Translations under genes and position numbers: made by a program
Virus record (IMG/VR): IMGVR_UViG_3300025889_000070
DNA length: 64,000 nt
Direction: 5' to 3' (one strand)
Source: a virus
Lineage: Duplodnaviria; Caudoviricetes
Notes under the pieces: model-generated
What the model was told of the DNA's origin: nothing
Seen by the model: the letters and a program-made list of their open reading frames with translations, nothing else
Databases searched by the model: none
In this document: one piece after another, positions 1-12,774 of the stretch
Layout: each line of letters starts with the position of its first letter
Numbering within the stretch: position 1 is the first letter of the stretch

Positions 1-1252
1 ACTGAATTAATCTGTCTAATTGTCCTGTTTCAAATTCGTGGAAAACATCTGGACTATCTATGTGTCCTTGATCACTAGTCCACCTTTGCCTTAGCTCAAG
101 TAGTCTGTTTACGTGTCTTTGTTTTATACTGTTGTCTAATACCAATGGTGACTGAAAACTAGGAAATCTTAAAATATTAAAACTCATTATTGCAAATCTT
201 CTATTTCCATATTCAATTCGTTTAGTCATTATACGATTTACTAGTTCTGGCAAAGTTTCCAAGCAAAGGGCATTTATAGTACACATACAATGTGTATCTA
301 TCCCTGATTCATGCAACCTTTGTATATTTTTCCACCAACGATCAAAAACCATTCCATCTCGTATGTATTCTGCAGCCTCGTCGGTTGCTTCTGCACTTGT
401 GTATACTCCAAGACTTGGTAAGTGTGCCTTAACATCTATTAGTCTTTGTATTAATTCTGGTTTAGCAACAAGGTTACTGTTTATTGCTAGACTTGTTTGA
501 CTTTTATCTCCGTTTTTTTCAAACCATTCTACAAGTTTCCAAAGGTCAGAACTCATTAATGGTTCTCCACCTGTGACTCGTAACTGTCTAAGTGTTTTAT
601 GTAGATCGCTTTCCCACCATTTAAAAAATGCTTCCACATATGGATTGAATTCACCATATCCATATAACTGGTTGCTATCATGTGTGTGAGTAAAGTGTCC
701 TCGTCCATCGCTGACTAAATTTTCATAAGGTCCATTTTTATTTAGATCTTTGACCCAAGTGCTTGAAAAAGCAGGATTACAGTAACTACATGCAAAATTA
801 CATGTTCTATCAAAAGCAATCTCTAAACTTCTAAGATCAAAATCTGTATTATGGTCTGTTGTATATGCATCGCTAAGTTCTTCATCTGTGTAAATCCAAC
901 TTTTGTAGACTCTATCACTTAAATGATCACCTCCCATATCCTCAATTTTCCAGCAATAGTTACAACCCTCAGGCCTTTCGCCACACTGCATTTGTCTACG
1001 TTGTTCTTTTTTTTCTGGTGTATTATGTAGTAGTTTAGGATTTGATTGTACTGCAATAGGATCTATTTTATGAGGCAGTGGATGATGACAACTAGTTGTC
1101 ATACCACTTCCAAGCCACACAGTAGCATTATACCATTTTGCACCGCAGAAACTTGCACTCTTACTATCCAAATGTTGTTGTTTGAAATCGTGCGGCGGTA
1201 GTGTATCTTGTAGTATACGTTCTAGATTATTAACTGGGTTGCCTTCAGTCAT
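1..1252 (-). CDS. Radical SAM protein with N-terminal twitch-like Cys domain (partial, runs off the left edge; not in the ORF track)
   Basis: Hand translation from ATG at 1252 (ATGA overlap with the stop of 1249..1542): MTEGNPVNNLERILQ...SFCGAKWYNATVWLGSGMTTSCHHP...CNYCW...DRTCKFACSYCNP (CxxxCxxC)...LRVTGGEPLM. Clear paralogue of 4356..5717. Confidence 0.88.
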   Translation of the reverse strand, partial: MTEGNPVNNLERILQDTLPPHDFKQQHLDSKSASFCGAKWYNATVWLGSGMTTSCHHPLPHKIDPIAVQSNPKLLHNTPEKKEQRRQMQCGERPEGCNYCWKIEDMGGDHLSDRVYKSWIYTDEELSDAYTTDHNTDFDLRSLEIAFDRTCNFACSYCNPAFSSTWVKDLNKNGPYENLVSDGRGHFTHTHDSNQLYGYGEFNPYVEAFFKWWESDLHKTLRQLRVTGGEPLMSSDLWKLVEWFEKNGDKSQTSLAINSNLVAKPELIQRLIDVKAHLPSLGVYTSAEATDEAAEYIRDGMVFDRWWKNIQRLHESGIDTHCMCTINALCLETLPELVNRIMTKRIEYGNRRFAIMSFNILRFPSFQSPLVLDNSIKQRHVNRLLELRQRWTSDQGHIDSPDVFHEFETGQLDRLIQ

Positions 1253-1542
1253 GTAAGTTTCTTCTTTAATATTTGTTTGATATCATCTTCAGTAAATTTT
1301 AATTCCCACGTACCATTGAAACTAACGTAATTTACATTTTTTAATTCTTTATAATCCTCATTATCAGTGGTCATGTTACTAAATTGAAACAATTCGTTTA
1401 ACAAGAGATCTTTGTAGTATATACTTTTTATAATAACATAGTCTTTTGCATTTGTTACATAGTTTTTTCCATAAAAATGAATTTTTGTTCCGTTGACATC
1501 ATATTGTATTGACCCGTTGTCTTCAAAAACATAATCTATCAT
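1249..1542 (-). CDS. Hypothetical protein (97 aa)
   Basis: ORF with 4-nt ATGA overlaps on both sides within the operon; no motif recognised. Confidence 0.65.
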   Translation of the reverse strand: MIDYVFEDNGSIQYDVNGTKIHFYGKNYVTNAKDYVIIKSIYYKDLLLNELFQFSNMTTDNEDYKELKNVNYVSFNGTWELKFTEDDIKQILKKKLT

Positions 1543-2195
1543 TTGTATCTCGTTGTAATTAAAACACTTGCTCTGGAATTTTTATTAGAGAAGTTTGCAC
1601 TAACATGAAAGTTTTCTCTAGGCCATATCATTGCATCTCCTAATTTCCATTTGTGTATGCAATCTACTGTAAAGCCACCTAATGCATCATAGTTTAGATG
1701 ATTAAGATATTTGTTATAAATTTCTTTGTCAAAAGGAGTGTTGGCTAATCCATAATCGCTACGAGTGATTTGTTTGTACGTAGTAATACCTTTACTGCCA
1801 AGACCGAGTTCGTTATTAAACGTTACTGCCTTTGCACTTTTTTGTTCAAATATTATTGTATAATACGCATCTGTATCATGAACACTTATAGGAATTAAAT
1901 AACTATTTGCAATATTTTTATCTTCATTGATGTATCCATCACTATGAACACCACCAGCACTATAGTCAAAATTTATATTTACAGTAGTAATTTCTTCATC
2001 CTGCGGTAATTTTTCTTGCAACTGTTTTAGTTTCCTACTAAAAAAAGGTTGATCCCAATGAGCCATTGTTAGAAAACGTTGCCCATTATCTCGTGTTTCC
2101 GGAAGTACACTGTGATACCATATAAACCAGTCGCATTCTTTTTTGCTAAAAAAATTATATATCTGTTTCATTTGCAAAATACTCTTTAATTTCAT
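1539..2195 (-). CDS. Putative 2OG-Fe(II) dioxygenase
   Basis: HxD motif (GGVHSDGY), distal His (PRENFHVS) and a following Arg (SRASVLI) in the usual double-stranded beta-helix order; GDAMIWP strand. Confidence 0.65.
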   Translation of the reverse strand: MKLKSILQMKQIYNFFSKKECDWFIWYHSVLPETRDNGQRFLTMAHWDQPFFSRKLKQLQEKLPQDEEITTVNINFDYSAGGVHSDGYINEDKNIANSYLIPISVHDTDAYYTIIFEQKSAKAVTFNNELGLGSKGITTYKQITRSDYGLANTPFDKEIYNKYLNHLNYDALGGFTVDCIHKWKLGDAMIWPRENFHVSANFSNKNSRASVLITTRYK

Positions 2196-2364
2196 TCAAT
2201 ACTTTTTTTGTTGTGTGTTGTCCTTCTTGCATTTCTTTAACAACACCAAGTCGTCTTTGTATATCTAATAATACTGGATTTTGAAACTTCCAAACTATAT
2301 GTCCGTTGTGCCCGAGATATAGATTACCATCTTCCTGCGCAGAAACTTTCACTCTTTGTATCAA
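2155..2364 (-). pseudogene. 3' fragment of a paralogue of the 165-aa protein at 2413..2910
   Basis: NLYLGHNGHIVW...KKVLNEIKEYF matches NLYLGHNGKLVY...KEFLQEMKKYF at the C-terminus of 2413..2910; the only start is a TTG that lies inside the radical SAM remnant. Confidence 0.55.
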
Positions 2365-2407
2365 GCATGTCTTTTTTAAATTTAGTATAATCCATAATAT
2401 GGTCCAT
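2324..2407 (-). pseudogene. 5' remnant of a twitch-domain radical SAM gene (27 codons)
   Basis: ATG 5 nt after the stop of 2413..2910 reads MDHIMDYTKFKKDMLDTKSESFCAGRW*, matching FKQQHLDSKSASFCGAKW of the gene at 1..1252. Confidence 0.65.
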
Positions 2408-2412
2408 AATTT

Positions 2413-2910
2413 TTAATCATTAAAAAAATACTTCTTCATCTCTTGCAGAAATTCTTTATTACTACGCATGCCCTGTGGCTGATGAATATTACTAAAACGT
2501 TCATGGAACCATGGTATACTAGGAGTAATAAATTCATTATATACTAACTTACCATTATGTCCTAGATATAAATTGTTTTTCCACTCCAGGGGATGGTTAT
2601 CTACGTGCCAATTATCCCAAGGAGGTATATCTGGATATTGTATAAAATTATATAGTTCCTGCTTAATGTCTACCTTGTTTATATAAAGTTTTTGCAATTC
2701 AAAATGTGTATCTGTATCTGTACTATAGTTTTTTCCGTAATGAACTATTTCTATAACATGTTTACCGTCTTTTAATTCACAATCAATGGATATACTGCCA
2801 TCTCGTGTACATCTATGGTTAGCATAGATTTTACCATCAACAAGTAATTTTATTAAAGGCAATCCTGCTTTAGTAAAGTCGAACTTAAAATTAGTACGTT
2901 CCATTGGCAA
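2413..2910 (-). CDS. Hypothetical protein (165 aa), probable beta-rich fold
   Basis: ORF overlapping the end of the B12 radical SAM gene; has a partial paralogue immediately downstream. Confidence 0.7.
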   Translation of the reverse strand: MPMERTNFKFDFTKAGLPLIKLLVDGKIYANHRCTRDGSISIDCELKDGKHVIEIVHYGKNYSTDTDTHFELQKLYINKVDIKQELYNFIQYPDIPPWDNWHVDNHPLEWKNNLYLGHNGKLVYNEFITPSIPWFHERFSNIHQPQGMRSNKEFLQEMKKYFFND

Positions 2911-4378
2911 TTTTTTCGTAACTTATCTTTAACCTTTTTAAATGACTGTCGGCGTTCCAAACATGGTATCCTAAATCTACTACATGCTCTTGTAACTCTA
3001 TACGTCTACGGATACGTTCTCTTAGCGTTAAGTCTGGATTGTCTGGCATTAGCCAGTTAAGACCAACCCGATCTCCTGTATCACCTAGGTGCATTAATCC
3101 TAGATCTGTCATTTCATTAAACAAAGGAGTTCCTTCATCTACACTTAATGTAGCACCTAAATTTAGTCCTCTAATTGTTCCATTTAGGGCATATTTTTTA
3201 AAATTAGTAAACATGTCCAGTGTTTGTTGATGATCTTCTTGTCGTTCAGTAGGATATCCACAAATCATACTAAAGAAACAGTTTAAGTTGTTCTTGTCAA
3301 GTTGGTCAATTACCGCGGCAAGTTCTGCTGTAGTAAACTGTTTACGCATGTGTTCTCTGACACGGTCACTGCCAGTCTCTGCTCCTATCATAACATGTGT
3401 GCATCCGGCACGTGCCATTAGTTGATAATCTTTTGGCGTTTGCTGGTTTAACCTTCTAACAATGAATTGGCCGTTAAATCGAAAGTGAGCGTCTGGTAAA
3501 TTATTTTTTTCATAATATTCAATAAGCGAAAACAGTAATTGTCTGAATGCTTTCATACTCCCATTAATTAAACTGTCAGTAAAAGTAAACTGTGTTACTC
3601 CATACTTTTCATAGTTCGTAATCATTTCTTCTGCTAGTACATGCCCACTACGAAACGTAAACTTTTTCCAATGTTCATGTATATCACAAAAACTGCATGC
3701 TCTTACACAGCCGCGGCTCCCGTTAACAGGAAGCATCTTTAATCCGTCATCATATTGATAGTTTAGTTCTATTAAATCGTCATACTCAGGAAAAGGTATA
3801 GTGTCTAAACTTAATTGCTTATAACTGTCATTATTAATACCAGGATACTGATCGTTTCCTGTTAAAAGTTCTACGAGTGCTATCTCGCCATCACCTCTAA
3901 TAAAATAATCAATCTGGTTTAAGTTTAGCATCTCTGCACCAAAGTCGTTGTATGCACTTGCAATACCATTGGTGCTAATACCAGCACCGCCTATAACTAT
4001 TTTTCCAGTGTATTTCTGTTTTAGTTTTTTAGTAAACAGCCTAGTGGCAAGTTGACACATCATTGTAAACACACTAATGCCAACAACCCTGGGATTTATT
4101 TCTATAACATCATCCACCCAGGAATCAAGTATTTGATCTACTCTAGCATCAATCTCAGGATCTCCATGAGTAGCTTCACTAAAATAATCAAAGAATTTTG
4201 AGTAGTCACTGCCAGTTTTGTTAAACAAATCTAAATTTAAATCTAGAATTGTACAAGTAAAACCAGCATCAACTACACTTCCTTTGAGCTGACTAGTGCC
4301 TGCCGGAGGATACTGTAACCCACTTATGGGTATATTAATTAGTAAAATGTCTAAATTATCGGTTAGCATTGTATTCAC
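2891..4378 (-). CDS. Cobalamin (B12)-binding-domain radical SAM protein (class B-like)
   Basis: N-terminal B12-binding-like region (VVGISVFT, KIVIGGAG, IRGDGE) followed by GSRGCVRACSFC (CxxxCxxC), FTDS, GAETGS and FSMICGYPTE. Confidence 0.88.
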   Translation of the reverse strand: MNTMLTDNLDILLINIPISGLQYPPAGTSQLKGSVVDAGFTCTILDLNLDLFNKTGSDYSKFFDYFSEATHGDPEIDARVDQILDSWVDDVIEINPRVVGISVFTMMCQLATRLFTKKLKQKYTGKIVIGGAGISTNGIASAYNDFGAEMLNLNQIDYFIRGDGEIALVELLTGNDQYPGINNDSYKQLSLDTIPFPEYDDLIELNYQYDDGLKMLPVNGSRGCVRACSFCDIHEHWKKFTFRSGHVLAEEMITNYEKYGVTQFTFTDSLINGSMKAFRQLLFSLIEYYEKNNLPDAHFRFNGQFIVRRLNQQTPKDYQLMARAGCTHVMIGAETGSDRVREHMRKQFTTAELAAVIDQLDKNNLNCFFSMICGYPTERQEDHQQTLDMFTNFKKYALNGTIRGLNLGATLSVDEGTPLFNEMTDLGLMHLGDTGDRVGLNWLMPDNPDLTLRERIRRRIELQEHVVDLGYHVWNADSHLKRLKISYEKIANGTY

Positions 4379-5717
4379 ATGTACTCCAAAACTCAGTCAT
4401 CTCCGGAAACGTTTCTAAAAAGTTAGTATTTCTTCGGCGATCATGTTCTCTAAAGAAACGATAAAAGTCTGCACGTTTACGCTCTATATCGTCAGTGCCG
4501 GCTTTCATCCAAGCTAAATCTCTTTTCATTTTTAAAACTTCATAGTCCTTGAATCCATGACTATTATGAAGATTTTCTTCCATAAACTCAATACAGTCTG
4601 TTAAACATACCTCATATGCTGGCGGTAATATCTGCATGCTTTGCCAATCAGGCGTGTATAATAACGGAGTATCAAACCATACACGCTGATAAGTTTTTGT
4701 ATATGTTTTGCGTAGGTAAAGTATATGTTCAAGTAATCGCTTTAACCCAATAATGTTTAAATTGCTCATTGTTATTATAAAAGTAAGACTTGAACGTTCT
4801 GGAACTTCATTTATAAAACGTTCAACTCTATTTATAGCAACATCAAAGTCCAGACCATGACGTATATATTCTGCTTGTGCTCCCCAGGTATCTAGACTAA
4901 CAAACTGCATAAAATGTTCTACTGTGCCTGGAAGTTTAGTAATGCGTTTTACATAGTCCAAATATTTTTCAAATAATTGCTGTTCAACACTAAAATTACT
5001 AGTAACATTCAGGTGTAGGTCTGGCTTGGGATTTTCTAACACATAATCAAATACACGAAAGGTATTGGGATCCATTAATGGCTCACCACCTGTCATACGA
5101 AAGTGTTTTAGGTCTTTATATAAATCAGGCCACCAACGCCAAAATGCTTTGCGATATGGATTAGCTTCTCTTTTAGGTATTGGTTTACGATCACCTGTAA
5201 AGTATTCAGGATCATTATGTGGCTTCTGTGTAGGATATGCTCCGTGGTCACGGGATTCACGTTCCCAGGTTGAACTAAACTGTGGACTACAATAACTACA
5301 TTTCAAGTTACAACTATGACTAAAATTTACTTCAACATAACTTGGGTTAACGTCTGCTTCAGGGTTGGCCACAATGTCGTCAAATGCTTCCATAGCCCAG
5401 GGTTCACCACTGCGATAATGACGATCACTGAGGTCACCGTTTTTCTCAATGTTCCAGCAGTAGTTACATTCAGTGCACTTAACACCCGCCATCATTTCAG
5501 CACGGCGCTCTTTCTTATGTGCAGTATTATGTAGGGCACTTGGATTTTCTGCAAGCGGCTCAGTAGGAATACGATGCAGTGGAGGATGATAGCAACTATT
5601 GGTATGCCCTGTTGTTAGATGTAGGCTTACCTGCTTCCATTTAGCCAAACAGAAACTGCCACTAACACCTGCTAGTTTTGCTTTTGCAATTTGTGCATCA
5701 CTAAGGTATTCACTCAT
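4356..5717 (-). CDS. Radical SAM protein with N-terminal twitch-like Cys domain
   Basis: FCLAKW...SCYHP...CNYCW N-terminal domain; CNLKCSYC; MTGGEPL. Confidence 0.88.
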   Translation of the reverse strand: MSEYLSDAQIAKAKLAGVSGSFCLAKWKQVSLHLTTGHTNSCYHPPLHRIPTEPLAENPSALHNTAHKKERRAEMMAGVKCTECNYCWNIEKNGDLSDRHYRSGEPWAMEAFDDIVANPEADVNPSYVEVNFSHSCNLKCSYCSPQFSSTWERESRDHGAYPTQKPHNDPEYFTGDRKPIPKREANPYRKAFWRWWPDLYKDLKHFRMTGGEPLMDPNTFRVFDYVLENPKPDLHLNVTSNFSVEQQLFEKYLDYVKRITKLPGTVEHFMQFVSLDTWGAQAEYIRHGLDFDVAINRVERFINEVPERSSLTFIITMSNLNIIGLKRLLEHILYLRKTYTKTYQRVWFDTPLLYTPDWQSMQILPPAYEVCLTDCIEFMEENLHNSHGFKDYEVLKMKRDLAWMKAGTDDIERKRADFYRFFREHDRRRNTNFLETFPEMTEFWSTCEYNANR

Positions 5718-6291
5718 TTTCTAACAAATTCAATCTAAAACTTTCCGCAATAATATCTTCGTCTTTTCCGGCTACAATGTCTGTAACAGGTGCAAAAGGT
5801 CCCCACTCTTTAAAAATTAAGAGTGCCTGTTCAAAATTCTTATTTGTATGACTATATAATTCATCTCTAATAATTTTAGAAAACTTACAAGTATCATTAT
5901 CGATATCTATTAGAACGTCACACTGCTTGTCGGGTATATTATCTTCATAATACCTAACATTACCAACTATAGTATCAAACGCAGATTCAACTGTGTTTCC
6001 TGTCTCATTTTTCCAAAAGACATCATAAAATCTGTGCAAGGATTGATAAAAGTCCTGGGTCCATAATTTGTGGATTTCAAATTTTGGAAAATGCTTTCTT
6101 AAAGTAGTAATAGTTAAGTTATGACATGTATATATTTTTCCAAATTCTACATTAGTATTTTCATCTAGATGTTTACTAAGGCCATAATTATGAGTTTCAT
6201 AATTTTGTTTATGCCCAGTATAATCTAAATCTTGTAGCATTAGCCTATATCTATTAGTACCCACTCCTGGGTATCCACAAATTATAATCAC
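5710..6291 (-). CDS. Hypothetical protein with P-loop/sulfotransferase-like N-terminus
   Basis: MIIICGYPGVGTNRY resembles the hydrophobic-strand-GxPxxGT start of sulfotransferase/kinase folds; the function call is weak. Confidence 0.45.
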   Translation of the reverse strand: MIIICGYPGVGTNRYRLMLQDLDYTGHKQNYETHNYGLSKHLDENTNVEFGKIYTCHNLTITTLRKHFPKFEIHKLWTQDFYQSLHRFYDVFWKNETGNTVESAFDTIVGNVRYYEDNIPDKQCDVLIDIDNDTCKFSKIIRDELYSHTNKNFEQALLIFKEWGPFAPVTDIVAGKDEDIIAESFRLNLLENE

Positions 6292-7205
6292 CAGCCTTCT
6301 GCCTTTCTTATTACTTCTAATTCTGTAGTCATAGGATCGTATGCATGATAGGTCTGACTGTAATAGTGTTTGAAAAACTTACTTTCGTCTACCGAGTAAT
6401 CAACAATGGGTAATTCAAGTATGCGTCTTAATTTTGCTCCATATTCATAGAAGTTTGAGTCCAACCATTCCTGTTCCTGGTCCCACAAACGATCCAGTGC
6501 CCTAAAGTCTCTAACTTCATGCCAGTCCCAGTCTGTGAGCATAAGCATATAAGTGCCTTGACGAGCACCATACATTGCCTCAAAGCCATGTTCAGCATCT
6601 AAGCCAACACTTTGCCAGATACACAGTTTGTCAAAGTTCTTAGCATGCACCTGTTGCTTGAATTCTTCCAGTGTAGGCTTGCGTCCTTTATTAAGACACA
6701 TCTTAACCCCTTCTCTGAAACCAGCACGCCAGGCATGTTTAGCATCCCCGTTGGGGTAGGTAGTGCTGTACACATTATTCATTGCTAGGTATTTTTGATC
6801 AAAACAAAACTCAACCACAGTTTCGTCGGTACCATCAGTTTCTTCGTGCGTTTTCATGTCGTTAATAAATTCACGTGTCCAACAACTTAAACCACCATTA
6901 CCATACATAAGTCCGTTTACTGCATTGCGTGCTTTCCAACGAAATACACAATCCTCATACTCTGGTTTAATATCTAACTGTAGATCAAAAAAGTTACTGT
7001 CTGGAATATTATCGCCGTCAATTAGAATAAAACGTTCAGTGTCGCTGGCCGCGGCGGCGGCTTTGTGTGCTGCATCACTACCTTCAACACCATCCACACG
7101 TTTAGCCCAAGGAACCATATTTTGAATATTTACCCAAAACTCTTCCTTTTGTGGTTCATCATAGGTCAAAAAAATCGTGTCTAAATCCGCTATGTCAACC
7201 AGCAT
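6288..7205 (-). CDS. Glycosyltransferase-like protein (DxD motif)
   Basis: FILIDGDN and YGNGGL resemble GT-A folds. Start moved from the track's 7259 to ATG 7205 (MLVDIADL) to avoid a 65-nt overlap with the upstream gene. Confidence 0.55.
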   Translation of the reverse strand: MLVDIADLDTIFLTYDEPQKEEFWVNIQNMVPWAKRVDGVEGSDAAHKAAAAASDTERFILIDGDNIPDSNFFDLQLDIKPEYEDCVFRWKARNAVNGLMYGNGGLSCWTREFINDMKTHEETDGTDETVVEFCFDQKYLAMNNVYSTTYPNGDAKHAWRAGFREGVKMCLNKGRKPTLEEFKQQVHAKNFDKLCIWQSVGLDAEHGFEAMYGARQGTYMLMLTDWDWHEVRDFRALDRLWDQEQEWLDSNFYEYGAKLRRILELPIVDYSVDESKFFKHYYSQTYHAYDPMTTELEVIRKAEGW

Positions 7206-8010
7206 CTTCCATTTCCCTGAGTAGTTTGCGTCGTTCTGCTCTAAGTTCTGCTTTGTCAAAATCTGACAAATGTAAGTCGTTGTTTAAATTTACAACTTCG
7301 CAGTTATAACTAAAACTCCAGCGTTCACCTTTGCTGCGGAAAGGACCAACACTGTGATTAAGCCAGGCTGGAAAACAATATAAGTCACCAACCCTGGGTT
7401 TAACCTTAAATTGTGCTAAACTCATGCCTGTACTTCTGCCATCCCAGAAGTTTATAAGCCCAGCACTGGGATCATGATCCTCTAATAACCATTCACGTTC
7501 AATATCGTCTGGCAATTTAAAGTATCCAACACCGCTAACAGTGCCAGTATGGGTGTGGGGAGGATTGAAGTCACCCGCTACACTAATATTTCCCCAAACT
7601 TGCTGAATGTTAACAGTAATATTCATGTTTTGTAATTGTCTGTCTACGAGTTCTACATGCTTGGGAGTTAATATGCCTTTCTTAAAACGCCACTCTACTA
7701 GTATACTACTAGCATAAAGTTGACTTGCGATATCTGCTAAACAGTTTGTTAGTAGCGGTGTTTTGTCTCCTAGTGTAGTTTCTTGAATTTTAAACTCACG
7801 ACGCATGTTACCAGCAAGAGCATAACTGTTATCGTCTTCCTCACTTATGTCCGATGAATCGCTGTATTTCTGGAATACTTGTTGCATTTCAGTCACTAGA
7901 TCATCCTCCATTGTAGTTTTAACAATGTTACAACTAAACGGCCTAATCACTTCATATTTTTCGTCTACAGTTACCCCAAGTCTATCTTGAACTTCATTCA
8001 ACATCATCAA
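7195..8010 (-). CDS. 2OG-Fe(II) oxygenase (phage 2OG-FeII_Oxy_5 / TIGR02466-like)
   Basis: VWGNISVAGDFNPPHTH...VSGVGYF...GDLYCFPAWLNHSV...RWSFSYN pattern typical of this family. Confidence 0.8.
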   Translation of the reverse strand: MMMLNEVQDRLGVTVDEKYEVIRPFSCNIVKTTMEDDLVTEMQQVFQKYSDSSDISEEDDNSYALAGNMRREFKIQETTLGDKTPLLTNCLADIASQLYASSILVEWRFKKGILTPKHVELVDRQLQNMNITVNIQQVWGNISVAGDFNPPHTHTGTVSGVGYFKLPDDIEREWLLEDHDPSAGLINFWDGRSTGMSLAQFKVKPRVGDLYCFPAWLNHSVGPFRSKGERWSFSYNCEVVNLNNDLHLSDFDKAELRAERRKLLREMEDAG

Positions 8011-8347
8011 GTTCCTTTATACAAAAAAACGGATTATTCTCCAGTGTTTGTGCTGGTGTCTTTTTCCAGTATATATTTTGTGCAGTTTCAATTTTAGCCA
8101 GTTTTCCATCTATAATTCTATGATTAACACTACTAGCATGAAAACTTTTATCAATAATTATATAAGGTTCTGTCCATATAGTATCCACAGTAACAGTGTC
8201 AGCGCGGCTTGTATCAAACTCCCCAGTGTCTTCATTATACGGCAATCTACGCTCTAGAGCAATTTTTGTTTTATTAAATGCTGCTAATGCCCTAGTTAGT
8301 TCACCAAATTCATCGTTATAGTCCCAGTCTTCGCTCATATCTTTCAA
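7994..8347 (-). CDS. Hypothetical protein (117 aa)
   Basis: ORF overlapping both neighbours in the operon; no motif recognised. Confidence 0.6.
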   Translation of the reverse strand: MKDMSEDWDYNDEFGELTRALAAFNKTKIALERRLPYNEDTGEFDTSRADTVTVDTIWTEPYIIIDKSFHASSVNHRIIDGKLAKIETAQNIYWKKTPAQTLENNPFFCIKELDDVE

Positions 8348-9167
8348 TTAAATCCTCTGTACAAAAATCTTTTTGGTAATAGTGAAATGGATAATGCTGG
8401 GCAAATCCACCTAATATTAGATCCATGTCCTTGGTAAGTGTCCAGGGCACAGCATTTCTCCAATCCATGTTAGGATGCCAACCATTAACTGCCCCCTTCA
8501 TGTGCGTAAAGGTTGGATAACCTATTTTGGTGGTAAATCCAATATTACTGTTACAGAACTTGCTGATGGTGCTGGCAATACTAAAGATAACATCAGTATC
8601 AGGTACACTGTAAACATTACCGGCAAGAACACTATTTCCAAGGTTATTATAGTTTTCAACAATCCTCTTTGACAGTTTAAAAAACTCCACACTAGGCCTG
8701 GATAAACGAAAATACATAAAACCATTATAAATATTGCCCAAGCAATTAACATCAAAAAACCTCCTGTATGCTCTAGTATAACTGGGTCTGCCCTGATAAT
8801 CTCTTACTGTATTAGTAAACACAACATTCTGATTTCTGCATCCGTGCCACCAGTGATCTAGGTTGCGAGGAATTAGCATGTCACTTTCAATTTTGAAAGT
8901 TTCTTTGAATGGCGTAAGATCCAGTGCTTGACATTCTAGAGCATAGGGATTACTAGACTTTGGCACCACCCTTATATAATCAAATACACCACGCTGCCTG
9001 TCTGTTAAAGTTTCTGCTGATTCTTCATCAACTACTACAGCAAACTTATTTATAGAGCAGGTTAACTTAATACTAAGAGCGAGCAAGTATGCTTGATTAA
9101 CATAGTTAACAGTGTCTGAGTTTTGTGCAAAAGTTAGCCAACCCTGCGCTTCATCTTTGGCTAGCAT
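8316..9167 (-). CDS. Nucleotide-diphospho-sugar transferase-like protein (GT8-like)
   Basis: LTPFKETFKIESDML corresponds to LSPYDETLLIDVDYL of the neighbour; YNGFMYF and FTHMK motifs; paralogue of 9151..9936. Confidence 0.65.
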   Translation of the reverse strand: MLAKDEAQGWLTFAQNSDTVNYVNQAYLLALSIKLTCSINKFAVVVDEESAETLTDRQRGVFDYIRVVPKSSNPYALECQALDLTPFKETFKIESDMLIPRNLDHWWHGCRNQNVVFTNTVRDYQGRPSYTRAYRRFFDVNCLGNIYNGFMYFRLSRPSVEFFKLSKRIVENYNNLGNSVLAGNVYSVPDTDVIFSIASTISKFCNSNIGFTTKIGYPTFTHMKGAVNGWHPNMDWRNAVPWTLTKDMDLILGGFAQHYPFHYYQKDFCTEDLIERYERRLGL

Positions 9168-9936
9168 ATTGATCTAGTGCTCCATATATTTCTGGATTCT
9201 GTAAACATTTTTTATTCATACAGTGTAGGTTTACACCCTGTATTTTTACAGCATTGTACTTGTCACCGTATCTATAACGTATCAGCAACTTGTCGCCTTC
9301 TACTTTATATATGCTATCTTCGGTGCTTAAACTTGCTAGCGGATGATTAAAGTATGTGCCACTGCTATAACCATTCATAAGTTGATGTGCTACAGTTAAA
9401 CTAAAATCATTGCGATATTTTCCCGCCTTAAAACCGTATAGTTTAGCATAGTAACGCCAATTTGCTTGTATGTTTTTCATGGTTTCAAATATGCGATGTG
9501 CTAGTTCACATTTACGAAAATAGACTACTGTAGCCCAGAGCATGGGCAATCCAGATCTGGTCATTACGTAGTCATTTTTAAAACTATTAGTTTGTGTTAC
9601 GTCCCACACACTATTATAACAGAGAAATTCGTGGTTGCTGGAAAAGTATTGTTTTAAATTATCATTAAATGTAAGATAGTCTACATCTATTAAAAGTGTT
9701 TCGTCGTAGGGAGATAGATCAAAAGCCAGTGTTCTATCACTGTTATACCAGGGCACCGTAACTATCTCGTTGTTATGCCAACGGAATGCTCTAGTATTGC
9801 CTGGCCGTGCTTCACCTACATGTATATGCGTTTCAATGTCTAAATGTTTTTCTACAAGTTTGGCAGCTAGTTTAGCAAACCCTATGTAGTCTATTGTTTC
9901 ATGTGGTGTAGCAAGTAGTAGTGCACCCTTGCTCAT
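9151..9936 (-). CDS. Nucleotide-diphospho-sugar transferase-like protein (GT8-like)
   Basis: LSPYDETLLIDVDYL (DxD), WATVVYF, RNDFS and LHCMNK motifs of GT-A fold enzymes. Confidence 0.7.
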   Translation of the reverse strand: MSKGALLLATPHETIDYIGFAKLAAKLVEKHLDIETHIHVGEARPGNTRAFRWHNNEIVTVPWYNSDRTLAFDLSPYDETLLIDVDYLTFNDNLKQYFSSNHEFLCYNSVWDVTQTNSFKNDYVMTRSGLPMLWATVVYFRKCELAHRIFETMKNIQANWRYYAKLYGFKAGKYRNDFSLTVAHQLMNGYSSGTYFNHPLASLSTEDSIYKVEGDKLLIRYRYGDKYNAVKIQGVNLHCMNKKCLQNPEIYGALDQYASQR

Positions 9937-10259
9937 AATTGTTCTACACGTCTAACCTTTTTTAATTCTTCGTGCTGATTGTGCCAATCATTCATTACTT
10001 CGTACCAGCGTTGTCTACAGTGTACTAACATGTCACAAGCATCGGCAATCTTTACTGGATTATCATAGTCGTCTACAAGATATAGCAGTTCATCTGCTGG
10101 CCATGTTGCTAGTAGTGCCATTAGTTCTACAGTGATACGAAACTGACCACCATTATATGTGATAGTTAAGCGTTGTTCCTGTTGTTCTTTAAGTGTGAGT
10201 CGCTGACGATTATGATCTAATCGTTGGCGGGCAAATTCTTCAAATGTTTCCTGAGTCAT
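9933..10259 (-). CDS. Hypothetical helical protein, first gene of the modification operon (probably leaderless)
   Basis: The track start at 10265 abuts the -10 box; the second ATG at 10259 sits at the expected transcription start. Confidence 0.65.
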   Translation of the reverse strand: MTQETFEEFARQRLDHNRQRLTLKEQQEQRLTITYNGGQFRITVELMALLATWPADELLYLVDDYDNPVKIADACDMLVHCRQRWYEVMNDWHNQHEELKKVRRVEQL

Positions 10260-10265
10260 ACACAT

Positions 10266-10294
10266 AGTATAACAGGGGCTTTCGCCCCTGTCAA
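10266..10294 (-). promoter_or_regulatory. Sigma70-type promoter whose spacer is a hairpin
   Basis: Minus strand TTGACA-ggggcgaaagcccctgt(17 nt)-TATACT with extended -10 TG; ACAGGGGC-GAAA-GCCCCTGT 8-bp inverted repeat at 10272-10291. Confidence 0.8.
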
Positions 10295-10335: not shown

Positions 10336-11325
10336 TTAAGACTCTGAATTTGTTACAGTTGCCCAGGTTAGTGTACCCCAGGTTGCTGAAATAAACGTTG
10401 TTGCTGGTGGTGTTGCTGCAAATACGTCAGCTTTATCTCCATCAACTTGGTCAAGAACGTTATAAATGTTTTTTGCATAACTGGTTTGATCAGTTTCAGC
10501 ATCGCTCCATGTACATTTTAGATGAACAACGGCGCCGTTGTTACCCCTACCATCAGCATGAGCTGTGTCAACTTTGGCTTCTAACTGCCAGAAGTTTGTT
10601 GTGTAAGGAGCAGTATCAGAGAATTGCTTGTAAAGCTCTGTATAAGCTGTTGTTAGATCATAATAACCAGTGTTATTAGCAATGGTTGGTGTTCCACTTC
10701 CGCCGTTCTTTTCTGTGGTTGTAGCACGTAGTCTGACACTTCCAATTAGTGTATTTACAGTGTCTTCCCATTCATTGTACTTATCATCAGTAAAGAAAGG
10801 TGCTGGGGATGGGCCACCAACAGACGTAGTACCGCCTGAAAGACTGGGGTTAACATCAATGTAACCGCCGGCATTAAAGAAGTAACGAGCTTCGTCACCA
10901 CCATCAAATGTTAGTGTTGCTTCGTGTACAATAGTTGATGAAAATGTGCCAGAGCTTGTTAATGTCAAGTCTGTGCTAGCACCAGTACTAGCGTTAACAC
11001 TACCACCAGCTACGCTTGTGTCAAGTGTACCAATGTCCGTTGCGAGAGCAGTAATAGCTGTAATAAGATCACTGGTTGATGGGTTAGTGACACTATCAAC
11101 TGTAATGTTACCATCATCTACTGTATGATCGCTGATGCTTTTGATTCTTGTTAGTAGGGTAGCCCACTGTGTAGCTGTAATTGTGTTGCCGTCAGCTACT
11201 GTGCTGATTGTGGTTGTTTGTCCCCAGCCTCTAATTCCAGTGCTCTGACCCCATAATGCATTGACACTAGTTACAAATCCATTGTAGTGAGTGTCTAGAA
11301 TTGTATCACCTGTTTGATATGCCAT
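10336..11325 (-). CDS. Virion structural protein (fibre/baseplate-associated)
   Basis: Thr/Ser/Gly/Asp-rich beta-type composition; last gene of the fibre block; MAYQTG start similar to the neighbour's MAYTVN. Confidence 0.6.
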   Translation of the reverse strand: MAYQTGDTILDTHYNGFVTSVNALWGQSTGIRGWGQTTTISTVADGNTITATQWATLLTRIKSISDHTVDDGNITVDSVTNPSTSDLITAITALATDIGTLDTSVAGGSVNASTGASTDLTLTSSGTFSSTIVHEATLTFDGGDEARYFFNAGGYIDVNPSLSGGTTSVGGPSPAPFFTDDKYNEWEDTVNTLIGSVRLRATTTEKNGGSGTPTIANNTGYYDLTTAYTELYKQFSDTAPYTTNFWQLEAKVDTAHADGRGNNGAVVHLKCTWSDAETDQTSYAKNIYNVLDQVDGDKADVFAATPPATTFISATWGTLTWATVTNSES

Positions 11326-11337
11326 ATTATATAATCC

Positions 11338-12774
11338 TTAATTTATGGTAACAAAGGCTTCTACTGTGCCTTCTTGTTCTGTTGATTTAGATTCAATAGC
11401 ACGTCCAATTACATTAAATGCTGTTGCTTCGCCTGGTTGTGCTGCTCTTGCTAGACCATTGCCTGCGCTAACAAGTCTATCACCTTTATTTACAGTACCT
11501 AGTACTCTAACTGGTACACGACCGGTTACAGCAACTGGTAGACCATCTTCTAGTCCAGCGTTCATTAGGTAAGCTGGCTTCTCAGAGATAACACCAAATA
11601 CCTGCTCGCTGGCTTCTTCGTTTACACGAGTAATTTCTTCCGCACCACCTAGTGCAACAACTGTGCCTGGTGCATACTGTGAGTCTGCTGAGAAATTTTC
11701 TGCAACGTCAGCGTATTGTGCTGCGGTACTAGTTCCATTAAATGTTGTAGCAAATACTGTAGAAATTCTAGAACCACTGCTACCAAAATTAACAGTGCCA
11801 CTTACGAGAATATTACCTGTCATTGTGCCACCGGAGGTAAGTAGAGAACCTGCTCCGCTTACTTGACTATCAACGTATGCTTTTGTAGCTGCGTCTGCAC
11901 TGGCAGTTGGTGTTGCTAGACTAGTAATCTTTTTACTACTAACATCAACAGTGCCGTTTCCATTTGGAGCAAGAATAATGCTGCCGTTTGTGTTTGTGTT
12001 TGTAAACACTGGGTTGCTACTACCGTTAACAGTAATAGTTAAGTCACTGTCTACACCAACAACTAAACCAGTATCATTAAGAACACTTAGTACACCACTG
12101 GTGCTATCGTTTGCATTGCTGCGTAGATAGTTTGCTGCGGCAACGCCACCAAGCGCATCTGCATCAGTTGCTGTGCCTTGTAGCTTGGCACCTGTAACTG
12201 TTGAACTAAGTTGAATACCGGGTTTAATAGTTGTAAATCCGCTTAAGGCTGCTTGTGGAGTAAATTCTGTGTCTTTACTGACTGTACCAACTACAGTATT
12301 GCTTACATATAGTTTTACAACTACGTGATCAGCACTAGCGTTGTCAGTTACAACTTCAACAATGGCCCCTGAAGTTCCTGAACCGCTGGTAAATGCTGGA
12401 CCAATTGTGGTAAAGCTACTACCATTGTAAACTTTTAACTGACCATTTGTAGTATCCCACCACAAATCCCCAGTTACACTGTTACTTGGAGCACTTGCAC
12501 TTGCTGTGCTTGAACTAACAGTTTTAAATGCGGTGCCTGTATAAACTTTGAGCAGACTGTTTGTAGTATCCCACCACATTTGGCCTGCTAGAGGTGAACT
12601 GGGTGCGCTACTATTTGCAAAATTCTCTAGCAGTTTTACGTAGTTTTCATTAAGAAACTCGCCGTAACCTGCGTAGTTTTTACCAATTAGTACTAAATCT
12701 GTTGTTGTGTTAATTGTTCCGTCTGAAACAGTTGCTAGAACAGATCCGTTGGTTTTGTTGACCGTATATGCCAT
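11338..12774 (-). CDS. Tail-fibre-like protein with C-terminal chaperone-like domain
   Basis: Repeated APSSPLAGQMWWDTT/APSNSVTGDLWWDTT units; DAATKAYVD fibre motif; C-terminal QYADVAE...GTVVALGG...PAYLMN...GRVPVRV domain shared with 13500..16355. Confidence 0.75.
   Translation of the reverse strand: MAYTVNKTNGSVLATVSDGTINTTTDLVLIGKNYAGYGEFLNENYVKLLENFANSSAPSSPLAGQMWWDTTNSLLKVYTGTAFKTVSSSTASASAPSNSVTGDLWWDTTNGQLKVYNGSSFTTIGPAFTSGSGTSGAIVEVVTDNASADHVVVKLYVSNTVVGTVSKDTEFTPQAALSGFTTIKPGIQLSSTVTGAKLQGTATDADALGGVAAANYLRSNANDSTSGVLSVLNDTGLVVGVDSDLTITVNGSSNPVFTNTNTNGSIILAPNGNGTVDVSSKKITSLATPTASADAATKAYVDSQVSGAGSLLTSGGTMTGNILVSGTVNFGSSGSRISTVFATTFNGTSTAAQYADVAENFSADSQYAPGTVVALGGAEEITRVNEEASEQVFGVISEKPAYLMNAGLEDGLPVAVTGRVPVRVLGTVNKGDRLVSAGNGLARAAQPGEATAFNVIGRAIESKSTEQEGTVEAFVTIN

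What the first reader, a model, noticed from the sequence alone, without database searches (positions are those of the whole stretch)
1..10294. A 10-kb phage operon of radical SAM, 2OG-oxygenase and glycosyltransferase genes next to the tail fibres
Seen: at least 13 co-oriented genes, nearly all overlapping their neighbours, behind one consensus sigma70 promoter. They include two paralogous twitch-type radical SAM enzymes, a B12-binding radical SAM, two 2OG-Fe(II) oxygenases, three GT-A-like proteins and a sulfotransferase/P-loop-like protein; the cluster continues past the window edge. Known: class B cobalamin radical SAMs methylate unactivated carbons or phosphorus; 2OG oxygenases coupled to glycosyltransferases build hypermodified bases (TET/JBP plus glucosyltransferase systems) or decorate proteins. 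Inference: this is a coherent biosynthetic pathway making an unusual glycan or modification for virion proteins, phage DNA or the host surface. No nucleotide-kinase, thymidylate-synthase or preQ genes are visible here, which leans towards a glycan or protein target. B12 dependence would tie phage fitness to host cobalamin.
Basis: partly seen in the sequence, partly recalled or inferred. Interest (0 to 1): 0.75.

Follow-up and report, generated by a model that had tools for sequence, protein, structure and literature searches.

The report
Phage tail-fibre-linked sugar-tailoring gene island
An uncultured giant phage carries, right after its tail-fibre genes, a conserved operon of sugar-transferring enzymes and many radical-SAM enzymes that most likely builds an unusual sugar decoration, probably for the fibre tip; no paper found here describes this module.

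Summary
Fourteen co-oriented minus-strand ORFs (2-10265), 12 of 13 junctions overlapping, follow one conserved sigma70-like promoter.

Gene calls:
- Firm: two N-terminal-twitch radical SAM paralogues, a B12-binding radical SAM and one 2OG oxygenase.
- g03 has a glycogenin-like GT8 fold, and g02 is its paralogue.
- g06 is GT-A/nucleotidyltransferase-like, at moderate confidence only.
- The second 2OG oxygenase (g12) and the sulfotransferase-like g07 are plausible, not proven.

The window is a T4-like jumbo phage. In 80 of 80 related viral contigs, and in Ralstonia phage RsoM2USA, the order is fibre, u1, g01, g02, g03, g06, then a radical SAM array. The B12 enzyme, 2OG oxygenases and g07 are rare, lineage-specific additions.

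In cellular genomes (almost all Bdellovibrionota) the same radical SAM family sits among glycosyltransferase and sugar-nucleotide genes. In some proteins it is fused to GT2 domains.

The fast-evolving GT8-like genes co-diverge with the last fibre gene. g06 and the radical SAMs evolve slowly. No cluster protein has a membrane segment.

Best reading: a soluble pathway that makes a tailored sugar and transfers it to a cytoplasmic acceptor, most likely the fibre tip. The acceptor and the chemistry are inferred, not shown. Other notes of this scan cover the same stretch of this genome.

The parts
10259..10294 (-). Sigma70-type promoter: TTGACA, a 17-nt spacer that forms an 8-bp GC hairpin, then TATACT. 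The probable g01 start ATG lies 6-7 nt after the -10 box, which implies a leaderless transcript.
   Evidence: 11 of 12 match with TG extension; conserved in 9 relatives, with compensatory changes in the stem.
9933..10259 (-). g01: a 108-aa conserved protein of unknown function and the first gene of the operon.
   Evidence: Present in 71 of 71 loci that reach it. 24% identical in RsoM2USA. The alignment is conserved along its whole length and does not look like a RiPP precursor.
9151..9936 (-). g02: GT8-like glycosyltransferase with an invariant DxD (D84, D86). It is a paralogue of g03.
   Evidence: hhalign against the g03 family: 96% probability, E 2.6e-9, 183 columns. Invariant columns.
8316..9167 (-). 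g03: glycogenin-like (GT8 fold) glycosyltransferase with an E-S-D variant of the DxD motif.
   Evidence: Profile against PDB glycogenin, E 1e-5. AF2 model pLDDT 91.8. Foldseek E 2e-9. VIA Z 16.2, rmsd 3.5 A over about 208 residues.
7994..8347 (-). g04: a 117-aa protein of unknown function, detected by BLAST mainly in the closer relatives.
7195..8010 (-). g05: 2OG-Fe(II) oxygenase (PF13759 / phrog_81). It is an accessory gene.
   Evidence: Absent from L018, L019 and L024 and from most of the 80 loci.
6288..7259 (-). g06: a highly conserved protein with an invariant DGD motif. Its N-terminal domain has a GT-A / nucleotidyltransferase-like fold. The true start is probably the ATG at 7205.
   Evidence: More than 8000 homologues and no Pfam family. 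AF2 pLDDT 69. Foldseek and VIA hits are all GT-A or NDP-sugar transferases, Z 7-8.6. Present in 59 of 59 loci.
5710..6291 (-). g07: a P-loop kinase / sulfotransferase-like protein, found in no relative examined.
   Evidence: Atlas features 0.93-0.94 to sulfotransferase clusters, TM 0.60 over 182 aa. No Pfam hit.
4356..5717 (-). g08: radical SAM enzyme with an N-terminal twitch/SPASM-like four-Cys domain (NF033640).
   Evidence: 330.5 bits against a cut-off of 170. Invariant C23, C42, C84, C87 and C136xxxC140xxC143. Adjacent to g06, or separated from it only by a lineage-specific gene, also in RsoM2USA.
2891..4378 (-). g09: B12-binding (class B) radical SAM enzyme, a rare accessory gene.
   Evidence: best hit is the PhpK family, 96.6 bits against a cut-off of 600. 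Found only in the window, in L001/L021 and in L115 among about 90 related loci.
2413..2910 (-). g10: a 165-aa protein of unknown function that travels with g09.
   Evidence: 72% identical in L001, next to the B12 gene.
2155..2364 (-). g11: a 69-aa ORF, a remnant copy of the C-terminus of g10.
   Evidence: BLASTP 39% identity over 54 aa, E 5e-8.
1539..2195 (-). g12: a candidate second Fe(II)/2OG oxygenase. Its family keeps a near-invariant HxD...H.
   Evidence: No PDB or Pfam match.
1249..1542 (-). g13: a 97-aa protein of unknown function, found in no relative examined.
2..1252 (-). g14: second N-terminal-twitch radical SAM, a paralogue of g08, cut by the window edge.
   Evidence: 278 bits against a cut-off of 170. 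32% identical to g08.
10336..11325 (-). u1: the last tail-fibre-like gene. It is a candidate acceptor because it co-diverges with g01-g03.
   Evidence: Homologous to part of the fibre-like ORF355 of RsoM2USA. Mantel r against g02 and g03 is 0.88 and 0.83, partial r 0.72 and 0.59.
11338..12774 (-). u2: tail fibre protein with a Peptidase_G2 / intramolecular-chaperone C-terminal domain.

Best explanation
This is a conserved, fibre-adjacent glycosylation and sugar-tailoring island of a large clade of T4-like jumbo phages.

Proposed mechanism; every step is inferred:
1. g06 and the N-terminal-twitch radical SAM array make or remodel an activated sugar. g06 has a GT-A or nucleotidyltransferase fold. 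The array is g08 and g14 in the window, and most related phages carry 4-6 such genes in all. These genes evolve slowly, which fits a conserved small substrate.
2. The two fast-evolving glycogenin-like GT8 enzymes, g02 and g03, transfer the sugar to a cytoplasmic acceptor. The most likely acceptor is the neighbouring distal tail-fibre protein u1, with which they co-diverge.
3. Lineage-specific tailoring enzymes diversify the decoration. In this phage they are a B12-dependent radical SAM (probably a C-methyltransferase), a 2OG hydroxylase (g05), a probable second oxygenase (g12) and a sulfotransferase-like protein (g07). Relatives add a cytidylyltransferase and a carbamoyltransferase.

The operon has its own conserved sigma70-type promoter, so it is transcribed separately from the late fibre genes.

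What is shown: the gene families, the folds, the synteny, the gene fusions and the co-divergence. What is inferred: the sugar substrate, the acceptor and the order of steps.
For: - Synteny: u2-u1-g01-g02-g03-g06 is kept in 71 of 71 and 59 of 59 loci that reach far enough. 57 of 59 also carry the radical SAM array, with a modal copy number of 5. RsoM2USA has the same order at 24-39% identity.
- g03 has a GT8 fold: Z 16.2 to glycogenin. Other top matches are LARGE1, UGGT, the Skp1 galactosyltransferase and GlyE, most of which glycosylate proteins.
- g02 is a paralogue of g03 with a canonical DxD.
- Fusion evidence: a full-length N_Twi radical SAM, 41% identical to g08, is fused to GT2 domains in P0405, P0407 and P0410. 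It is fused to Glyco_transf_7C in P0446 and P0452.
- Bacterial neighbourhoods of the family are enriched in GT4, GT2, GDP-mannose dehydratase/epimerase, DegT, carbamoyltransferase and, in a few loci, flagellin.
- Relatives add a cytidylyltransferase and a NodU-type carbamoyltransferase.
- No cluster protein has a transmembrane segment, so a lipid-linked export pathway is not self-contained here.
- Mean pairwise distances are 0.61 for u1, 0.57 for g02 and 0.50 for g03, against 0.34 for g06 and 0.33 for g08. The partial Mantel r of u1 with g02 is 0.72 and with g03 0.59, controlling for g06 and g08.
Against: - No glycan, substrate or acceptor has been observed.
- The co-divergence of u1 with g01-g03 could be plain physical linkage.
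- The operon uses a sigma70-like promoter rather than the ATAAATA-like motif seen before the fibre genes. This is not what one would first expect of a virion-maturation function.
- g06 is only moderately modelled (pLDDT 69), and GT-A cannot be told from nucleotidyltransferase.
- SPASM/twitch radical SAMs are best known as peptide modifiers.
- A 33-aa basic peptide gene lies in the extended cluster of relative L001. Two of 148 bacterial neighbours carry a PqqD domain.
- GT8 enzymes also build LPS (LgtC and WbbM are among the hits).
Confidence: 0.5

Rival explanations
1. Peptide or protein radical chemistry (RiPP-like). The radical SAM array crosslinks, epimerises or methylates a small peptide or the fibre protein itself, and the glycosyltransferases add a glycocin-like sugar.
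For: - SPASM/twitch radical SAMs are mostly peptide maturases; several NCBIfam side hits are to RiPP maturases.
- The second-best NCBIfam hit for g09 is a RiPP C-methyltransferase family.
- A 33-aa basic peptide ORF sits between the last radical SAM and the carbamoyltransferase in L001.
- Two bacterial neighbours carry PqqD.
Against: - No RRE/PqqD domain and no precursor-like gene were found in the window.
- g01 is conserved along its whole length and is not Cys-rich.
- The family is fused to GT2 domains and sits in sugar-nucleotide neighbourhoods.
- The peptide was found only in L001.
Confidence: 0.15
2. Remodelling of a host surface glycan. The enzymes alter host LPS, capsule or flagellin glycans during infection, for example to block superinfection or to prevent progeny from being trapped.
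For: GT8 enzymes include LPS transferases such as LgtC and WbbM. Bacterial homologues of the radical SAM sit in surface-glycan-type islands and, in 4 of 73 loci, near flagellin genes. A sigma70-type promoter suggests expression before the late genes.
Against: No flippase, polymerase, polyprenyl-phosphate transferase or any membrane protein is in the cluster. The strict position after the fibre genes and the co-divergence with u1 are not explained.
Confidence: 0.13
3. Hypermodification of phage DNA or nucleotides. The glycosyltransferases and radical SAMs decorate a modified base to evade restriction.
For: Phage glycosyltransferases often glycosylate DNA (Pyle et al. 2024, as cited in PMC12619734). 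A sigma70-type promoter would fit early expression. The radical SAMs have weak side hits to MoaA, QueE and viperin.
Against: No TET/JBP domain, hydroxymethylase, nucleotide kinase or dNMP-modifying gene is in or next to the cluster. No paper found here reports a GT8 enzyme acting on DNA. The bacterial contexts are glycan-type, not DNA-type. The module is always in the tail-fibre block.
Confidence: 0.1
4. A diffusible small molecule, such as an aminoglycoside-like or nucleoside-like natural product, made during infection.
For: The enzyme set (several radical SAMs, a B12 radical SAM, a 2OG oxygenase, a NodU/TobZ-type carbamoyltransferase and glycosyltransferases) resembles aminoglycoside or nucleoside antibiotic clusters. 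This comparison rests on general knowledge of such clusters. A cyanomyovirus with radical SAM, sugar aminotransferase and amidinotransferase genes has been read this way (PMC12801897).
Against: The cluster has no scaffold-forming enzyme such as an inosose synthase, NRPS or PKS, and no exporter or self-resistance gene. The core is fixed next to the fibre genes in every lineage.
Confidence: 0.08

Closest known systems
Virion glycosylation islands of mycobacteriophages (Freeman et al. 2023, cited in PMC12619734)
   Same: Phage-encoded glycosyltransferase genes lie beside structural genes, and the proposed target is virion proteins.
   Different: This island has GT8-like enzymes plus an array of 4-6 radical SAM enzymes and variable tailoring genes. 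It occurs in T4-like jumbo phages. The target is presumed to be the tail fibre rather than the capsid or tail tube. No glycan has been shown.
Glycogenin / GT8 retaining glycosyltransferases (also LARGE1, UGGT, Skp1 Gat1, GlyE, LgtC)
   Same: g03 shares the fold (Z 16.2, rmsd 3.5 A over about 208 residues). g02 keeps a DxD motif, and both keep a C-terminal His...Lys.
   Different: About 14% identity, and neither reaches any Pfam family. g03 has E-S-D in place of DxD. Donor and acceptor are unknown.
NCBIfam NF033640, N-terminal twitch radical SAM proteins (uncharacterised family)
   Same: g08 and g14 score well above the family cut-off. They keep the four N-terminal Cys and the CxxxCxxC motif.
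   Different: No paper found here assigns the family a function. In phages it is expanded into tandem arrays next to g06. In bacteria (almost all Bdellovibrionota) it is single or tandem within glycan islands, and sometimes fused to GT2.
Class B cobalamin radical SAM methyltransferases (PhpK, GenK, Fom3, PoyB/C type)
   Same: g09 has the B12-binding domain followed by a radical SAM core with CxxxCxxC.
   Different: It reaches no equivalog cut-off (best 96.6 bits against 600). Its substrate is unknown, and it is a rare accessory of the island.
Hydroxylase plus glycosyltransferase protein modification (collagen LH3; Skp1 P4H/Gnt1/Gat1)
   Same: A 2OG oxygenase (g05) lies next to GT8-like transferases. 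LH3, COLGALT1 and Gat1 are among the structural matches of g03.
   Different: g05 belongs to PF13759, not to the prolyl or lysyl hydroxylases, and many relatives that keep g03 lack it. The analogy is a lead only.

Membership tests
NF033640 N_Twi_rSAM (radical SAM with N-terminal twitch domain) | Score above the curated cut-off (170 bits) | tested here: met
   g08 scores 330.5 bits and g14 278.3 bits.
NF033640 N_Twi_rSAM (radical SAM with N-terminal twitch domain) | CxxxCxxC radical SAM cluster motif, plus conserved N-terminal Cys ligands for an auxiliary cluster | tested here: met
   Invariant C136, C140, C143 and C23, C42, C84, C87 across 8 paralogues. The three downstream paralogues in L001 hit Pfam SPASM at their N-terminus.
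Class B (B12-binding) radical SAM | B12-binding domain followed by a radical SAM core, both above the Pfam cut-offs | tested here: met
   PF02310 32.4 bits against 32.1 (marginal). PF04055 57.2 bits against 29.5. The CVRACSFC motif is in the sequence.
Class B (B12-binding) radical SAM | Membership of a characterised equivalog (PhpK, BchE, GenK-like and so on) that would give the substrate | tested here: not met
   The best hit is the PhpK family at 96.6 bits against a cut-off of 600. All 25 hits are far below their cut-offs.
GT8 (glycogenin-like retaining GT-A) | GT-A fold closest to GT8 structures over the whole domain | tested here: met
   g03: Foldseek E 2e-9, VIA Z 16.2 over residues 5-283. 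g02 is linked by hhalign, 96% probability.
GT8 (glycogenin-like retaining GT-A) | DxD metal/nucleotide-sugar motif | tested here: inconclusive
   g02 has invariant D84-x-D86. g03 has E94-S95-D96, aligned to glycogenin D-A-D.
GT8 (glycogenin-like retaining GT-A) | Match to Pfam Glyco_transf_8 at its gathering score | tested here: not met
   g02 and g03 match no Pfam glycosyltransferase family even at E <= 10.
GT-A glycosyltransferase or NDP-sugar nucleotidyltransferase (g06) | Rossmann-like alpha/beta/alpha domain with DxD after strand 4 | tested here: inconclusive
   Model pLDDT 69. All top matches are GT-A or nucleotidyltransferases, but only at Z 7-8.6 and Foldseek E 1e-3 or weaker. The DGD motif is invariant.
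Fe(II)/2OG oxygenase | Pfam 2OG family above its cut-off (g05) | tested here: met
   PF13759 64.2 bits against 27. phrog_81 E 2e-24.
Fe(II)/2OG oxygenase | HxD...H facial triad and a profile or structure match (g12) | tested here: inconclusive
   H84, D86 and H197 are near-invariant in 29 homologues. There is no PDB or Pfam hit, and hhalign to g05 gives E 0.11.
TET/JBP plus glycosyltransferase DNA hypermodification systems | A TET/JBP-type dioxygenase, or a 5-hydroxymethylpyrimidine-forming enzyme, in the cluster | tested here: not met
   g05 matches PF13759 and PF13640 only. No other cluster protein matches a nucleotide-modifying family.
RiPP biosynthetic cluster | A precursor peptide gene and an RRE/PqqD-like recognition domain | tested here: inconclusive
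   No PqqD/RRE hit in window proteins. A 33-aa peptide ORF exists in relative L001, outside the window's range.
Sulfotransferase (g07) | P-loop-like PAPS-binding fold and a family match | tested here: inconclusive
   The atlas gives nearest named clusters that are all sulfotransferases (0.93-0.94; TM 0.60). Pfam finds none.
Phage virion glycosylation | A glycan detected on virion proteins | not testable with these tools
   Needs virion mass spectrometry. RsoM2USA is the cultured phage that carries the core module.

The most novel reading that the evidence does not exclude
A previously undescribed kind of virion decoration. A clade of aquatic and soil jumbo phages uses an array of N-terminal-twitch radical SAM enzymes, coupled to GT-A-fold enzymes, to build a heavily tailored sugar. 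Depending on the lineage the sugar would be C-methylated, hydroxylated, and sulfated or carbamoylated. Glycogenin-like transferases then place it on the receptor-binding fibre tip, so that glycan and fibre diversify together. This would also give the first function to the NF033640 radical SAM family, as radical carbohydrate tailoring, including in Bdellovibrionota surface and flagellar glycans.
Probability: 0.3. Interest if true: 0.85.

Novelty: new variant of a known kind. Interest (0 to 1): 0.7.

Why it matters
Phage-encoded glycosylation of virions is known from a few systems, but no paper found here reports one built around arrays of radical SAM enzymes.

- The module is very common. IMG/VR holds at least 571 stretches encoding a g03 relative, and g06 has more than 8000 homologues with no Pfam family.
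- It sits at the business end of the virion. If it decorates fibre tips, it bears on host recognition, on resistance to proteases and on the evolution of receptor-binding proteins in abundant environmental jumbo phages.
- It offers a tractable entry to an uncharacterised radical SAM family, through the cultured Ralstonia phage RsoM2USA and through natural radical SAM-GT2 fusions.
- It offers new radical carbohydrate chemistry, including a B12-dependent step in some lineages.

Tried and rejected
- Megablast of the 10.3 kb against GenBank phages found nothing.
- Pfam, PHROGs and NCBIfam gave nothing for g01-g04, g06, g07, g10-g13, even at E <= 10.
- PDB sequence or profile searches gave nothing useful for g06, g02, g12, u1 or the radical SAM at 44824. 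The N_Twi profile gave only a weak MoaA match.
- hhalign of the g06 profile against the bacterial partner 'x324', the L062 fusion and the GT domains of P0405 and P0446 was not significant.
- The T4 late promoter TATAAATA is not enriched in the window.
- The 'moraphage' paper (PMC12619734) describes a different lineage.
- Literature searches for this module found no description.
- Flagellin adjacency of the bacterial radical SAM looked striking at first but holds in only 4 of 73 loci. It is kept as a minor lead.
- g01 was considered as a RiPP precursor or carrier and rejected on its conservation pattern.

Full report
**What the window is.**
The window is a T4-like jumbo myophage.
- Its major capsid protein is 64-68% identical to those of Pseudomonas phage PA5oct, Vibrio phage 2.275.O and the Erwinia pEa_SNUABM phages.
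- It carries a gp55-type late sigma factor, gp46/47-like nuclease subunits, a portal, a gp6-like baseplate wedge and a 4524-aa ORF.
- No near-identical phage is in GenBank.
- No whole genome is held for the window.

**The observation.**
- From 10265 down to base 2 there are 14 minus-strand ORFs. Twelve of 13 junctions overlap.
- Upstream of the first ORF lies TTGACA-17-TATACT with a TG extension. It is the best promoter-like site in the 13.5 kb scanned and one of three such sites in the 64 kb window.
- The 17-nt spacer forms a GC hairpin. In nine relatives the two hexamers are kept and the stem changes by compensatory substitutions. An ATG follows 6-7 nt after the -10 box. The operon is therefore probably a separate, leaderless transcription unit.
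- The fibre and baseplate genes upstream carry an ATAAATA-like motif instead.

**Gene identities.**

| Gene | Call | Evidence |
|---|---|---|
| g08, g14 | N-terminal-twitch radical SAM (NF033640), paralogues | 330 and 278 bits against a cut-off of 170; 32% identical; four conserved N-terminal Cys plus CxxxCxxC |
| g09 | B12-binding radical SAM, substrate unknown | Reaches no equivalog cut-off |
| g05 | 2OG oxygenase, PF13759 | |
| g03 | Glycogenin-like GT8 fold | Profile against PDB glycogenin E 1e-5; model pLDDT 91.8; Foldseek E 2e-9; Z 16.2 over the whole protein |
| g02 | Paralogue of g03, invariant DxD | |
| g06 | GT-A / nucleotidyltransferase-like N-terminal domain, moderate confidence | More than 8000 homologues; no Pfam family; invariant DGD; all structural matches are of this fold, at Z 7-8.6 |
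| g07 | P-loop / sulfotransferase-like, atlas lead only | |
| g12 | Candidate 2OG oxygenase | Near-invariant HxD...H but no profile or structure match |
| g11 | Remnant of a duplicated g10 | |

No cluster protein has a transmembrane segment.

**Beyond the window edge.**
In the 87%-identical relative L001 the operon continues. It holds three more N-terminal-SPASM radical SAMs, four ORFs of unknown function, a 33-aa basic peptide ORF and a NodU/CmcH-type carbamoyltransferase. L001 also has a cytidylyltransferase between g01 and g02.

**Synteny.**
- Nine close IMG/VR relatives keep the order giant ORF-u4-u3-u2-u1-g01-g02-g03-g04-(g05)-g06-g08-g14-radical SAMs.
- A profile search with the g03 family found at least 571 viral stretches. 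In the 80 fetched (34-92% identity), every locus that reaches far enough has u2, u1, g01 and g02 upstream (71 of 71) and g06 downstream (59 of 59). 57 of 59 also have the radical SAM array, usually 4-6 copies.
- The cultured Ralstonia phage RsoM2USA has fibre-like ORF355, then g01, g02, g03, one ORF, g06, an N_Twi radical SAM and a short g06 paralogue. Identities are 24-39%, and the block again lies downstream of gp6 and a giant ORF.
- The accessory genes are patchy:
  - The B12 radical SAM with g10 occurs only in the window, in one other contig (fetched as L001 and L021) and in L115.
  - g05 occurs in a minority of loci.
  - g07 and g11-g13 occur only in the window.

**Function by association.**
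- A scan of species-representative genomes with the N_Twi profile gave 79 loci. Six are phage-like contigs binned into MAGs, with the same module. The other 73 are almost all Bdellovibrionota.
- Among 148 immediate neighbours in those bacteria, the commonest Pfam families are:
  - GT4 (8)
  - GT2 (7)
  - further radical SAM/SPASM (7 and 5)
  - flagellin (6)
  - ABC transporters (5)
  - GDP-mannose dehydratase/epimerase (3)
  - DegT, carbamoyltransferase and PseB-like (2 each)
- One locus reads carbamoyltransferase-GT4-DegT-radical SAM-GT4.
- Flagellin lies within 8 kb in only 4 of 73 loci.
- Full-length N_Twi radical SAMs are naturally fused to GT2 domains (P0405, P0407, P0410) and to Glyco_transf_7C (P0446, P0452). 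P0405 is 41% identical to g08 over all 453 residues.
- Together with the conserved g06-g08 neighbourhood (adjacent, or split only by a lineage-specific gene), this ties the family to GT-A glycosyltransferases and carbohydrate chemistry.
- Neighbours of B12 radical SAM homologues in other phage contigs include further radical SAMs and NAD-epimerase/dehydratases. This signal is weak.

**The acceptor.**
- Across 60 complete loci the mean pairwise distances are 0.61 for u1, 0.57 for g02, 0.51 for g01 and 0.50 for g03. They are only 0.34 for g06 and 0.33 for g08.
- The distance matrix of u1 correlates with g02 (r 0.88), g03 (0.83) and g01 (0.78). The correlation is weaker with g06 and g08 (0.65) and with the upstream fibre gene u2 (0.36).
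- After controlling for g06 and g08, the partial r is 0.72 for g02, 0.59 for g03 and 0.20 for u2.
- Among the nine close relatives, identity to the window for g03, g04 and g05 tracks that of u1 (r 0.85-0.92). The intervening g01 and g02 do not.
- This fits fast-evolving, acceptor-specific transferases that travel with the fibre tip, and slow-evolving donor-making enzymes. Physical linkage can produce the same pattern, so it is suggestive only.

**Reading and rivals.**

| Reading | Confidence |
|---|---|
| Soluble glycosylation and sugar-tailoring island whose product is put on a cytoplasmic acceptor, most likely the distal fibre protein | 0.5 |
| RiPP-like peptide or protein radical chemistry | 0.15 |
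| Host surface-glycan remodelling | 0.13 |
| DNA hypermodification | 0.1 |
| Diffusible natural product | 0.08 |

For carbohydrate chemistry in general I put the confidence higher, at about 0.75. The sigma70-type promoter is the main oddity for a virion-maturation role.

**Novelty.**
No paper found here describes the module or assigns a function to NF033640. Phage virion glycosylation is known (Freeman 2023, as cited in PMC12619734), so this is a new variant of a known kind, with unknown radical chemistry. Other first-stage notes of this scan cover the same stretch of this same genome and its continuation. I tested their claims about the promoter, the g10/g11 scar and the downstream array only through this window and L001.

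Noticed in passing
window 16408-29982 (-): A single 4524-aa ORF lies between the gp6-like baseplate gene and the fibre genes. It shares patchy 21-28% similarity with the 7.6-kb ORF361 of Ralstonia phage RsoM2USA, in the same position.
   Followed up: partly
window 10259-10294 (-): A promoter, a hairpin and a leaderless start lie in one element. The -35 and -10 hexamers flank an 8-bp GC stem whose sequence varies by compensatory changes in nine relatives. The ATG lies 6-7 nt after the -10 box.
   Followed up: partly
window 2155-2364 (-): The 69-aa ORF g11 is a remnant copy of the C-terminus of g10 (39% over 54 aa). It marks a duplication or deletion scar inside the roughly 3-kb accessory insert (g09-g13), which lies in the two lowest-GC 2-kb bins of the window (33.6-34.6% GC).
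   Followed up: partly
window 44824-45669 (+): A further radical SAM-like gene (phrog_21308) lies directly after the SbcC/SbcD-like (gp46/47) genes in the replication block, unrelated to the fibre-side array. It has no PDB match.
   Followed up: partly
L025, L026, L035, L042, L049, L063: Contigs binned into MAGs named Haliscomenobacter, Betaproteobacteria TMED41, Rickettsiales MED606, Verrucomicrobia TMED56 and Neomarinimicrobiota RS350 carry the same fibre-g01-g02-g03-g06-radical SAM module. They look like jumbo-phage contigs inside bacterial bins.
   Followed up: partly
L027-L103 (bacterial loci): The NF033640 radical SAM family is concentrated in Bdellovibrionota, often as tandem arrays of 2-7 paralogues. 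In L030, L062 and L090 it lies directly beside flagellin and FlaG genes. In L062 two copies are fused into one 834-aa ORF.
   Followed up: partly
L001:19976-20074 (+): A 33-aa, very basic peptide ORF ending RKRDPFIYK overlaps the end of the last radical SAM and precedes the carbamoyltransferase.
   Followed up: partly
window 6288-7259 (-): The g06 family has more than 8000 homologues at 62% identity or more among the best 120 listed, in contigs of up to 369 kb, yet it has no Pfam family. It would be a good candidate for a new family definition.
   Followed up: partly
window 11325, 13493, 45740 (gene starts): Several genes have TATAAT or TATAATA ending directly at, or 3 nt before, their ATG. 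This may be a second class of promoters with leaderless starts.
   Followed up: no
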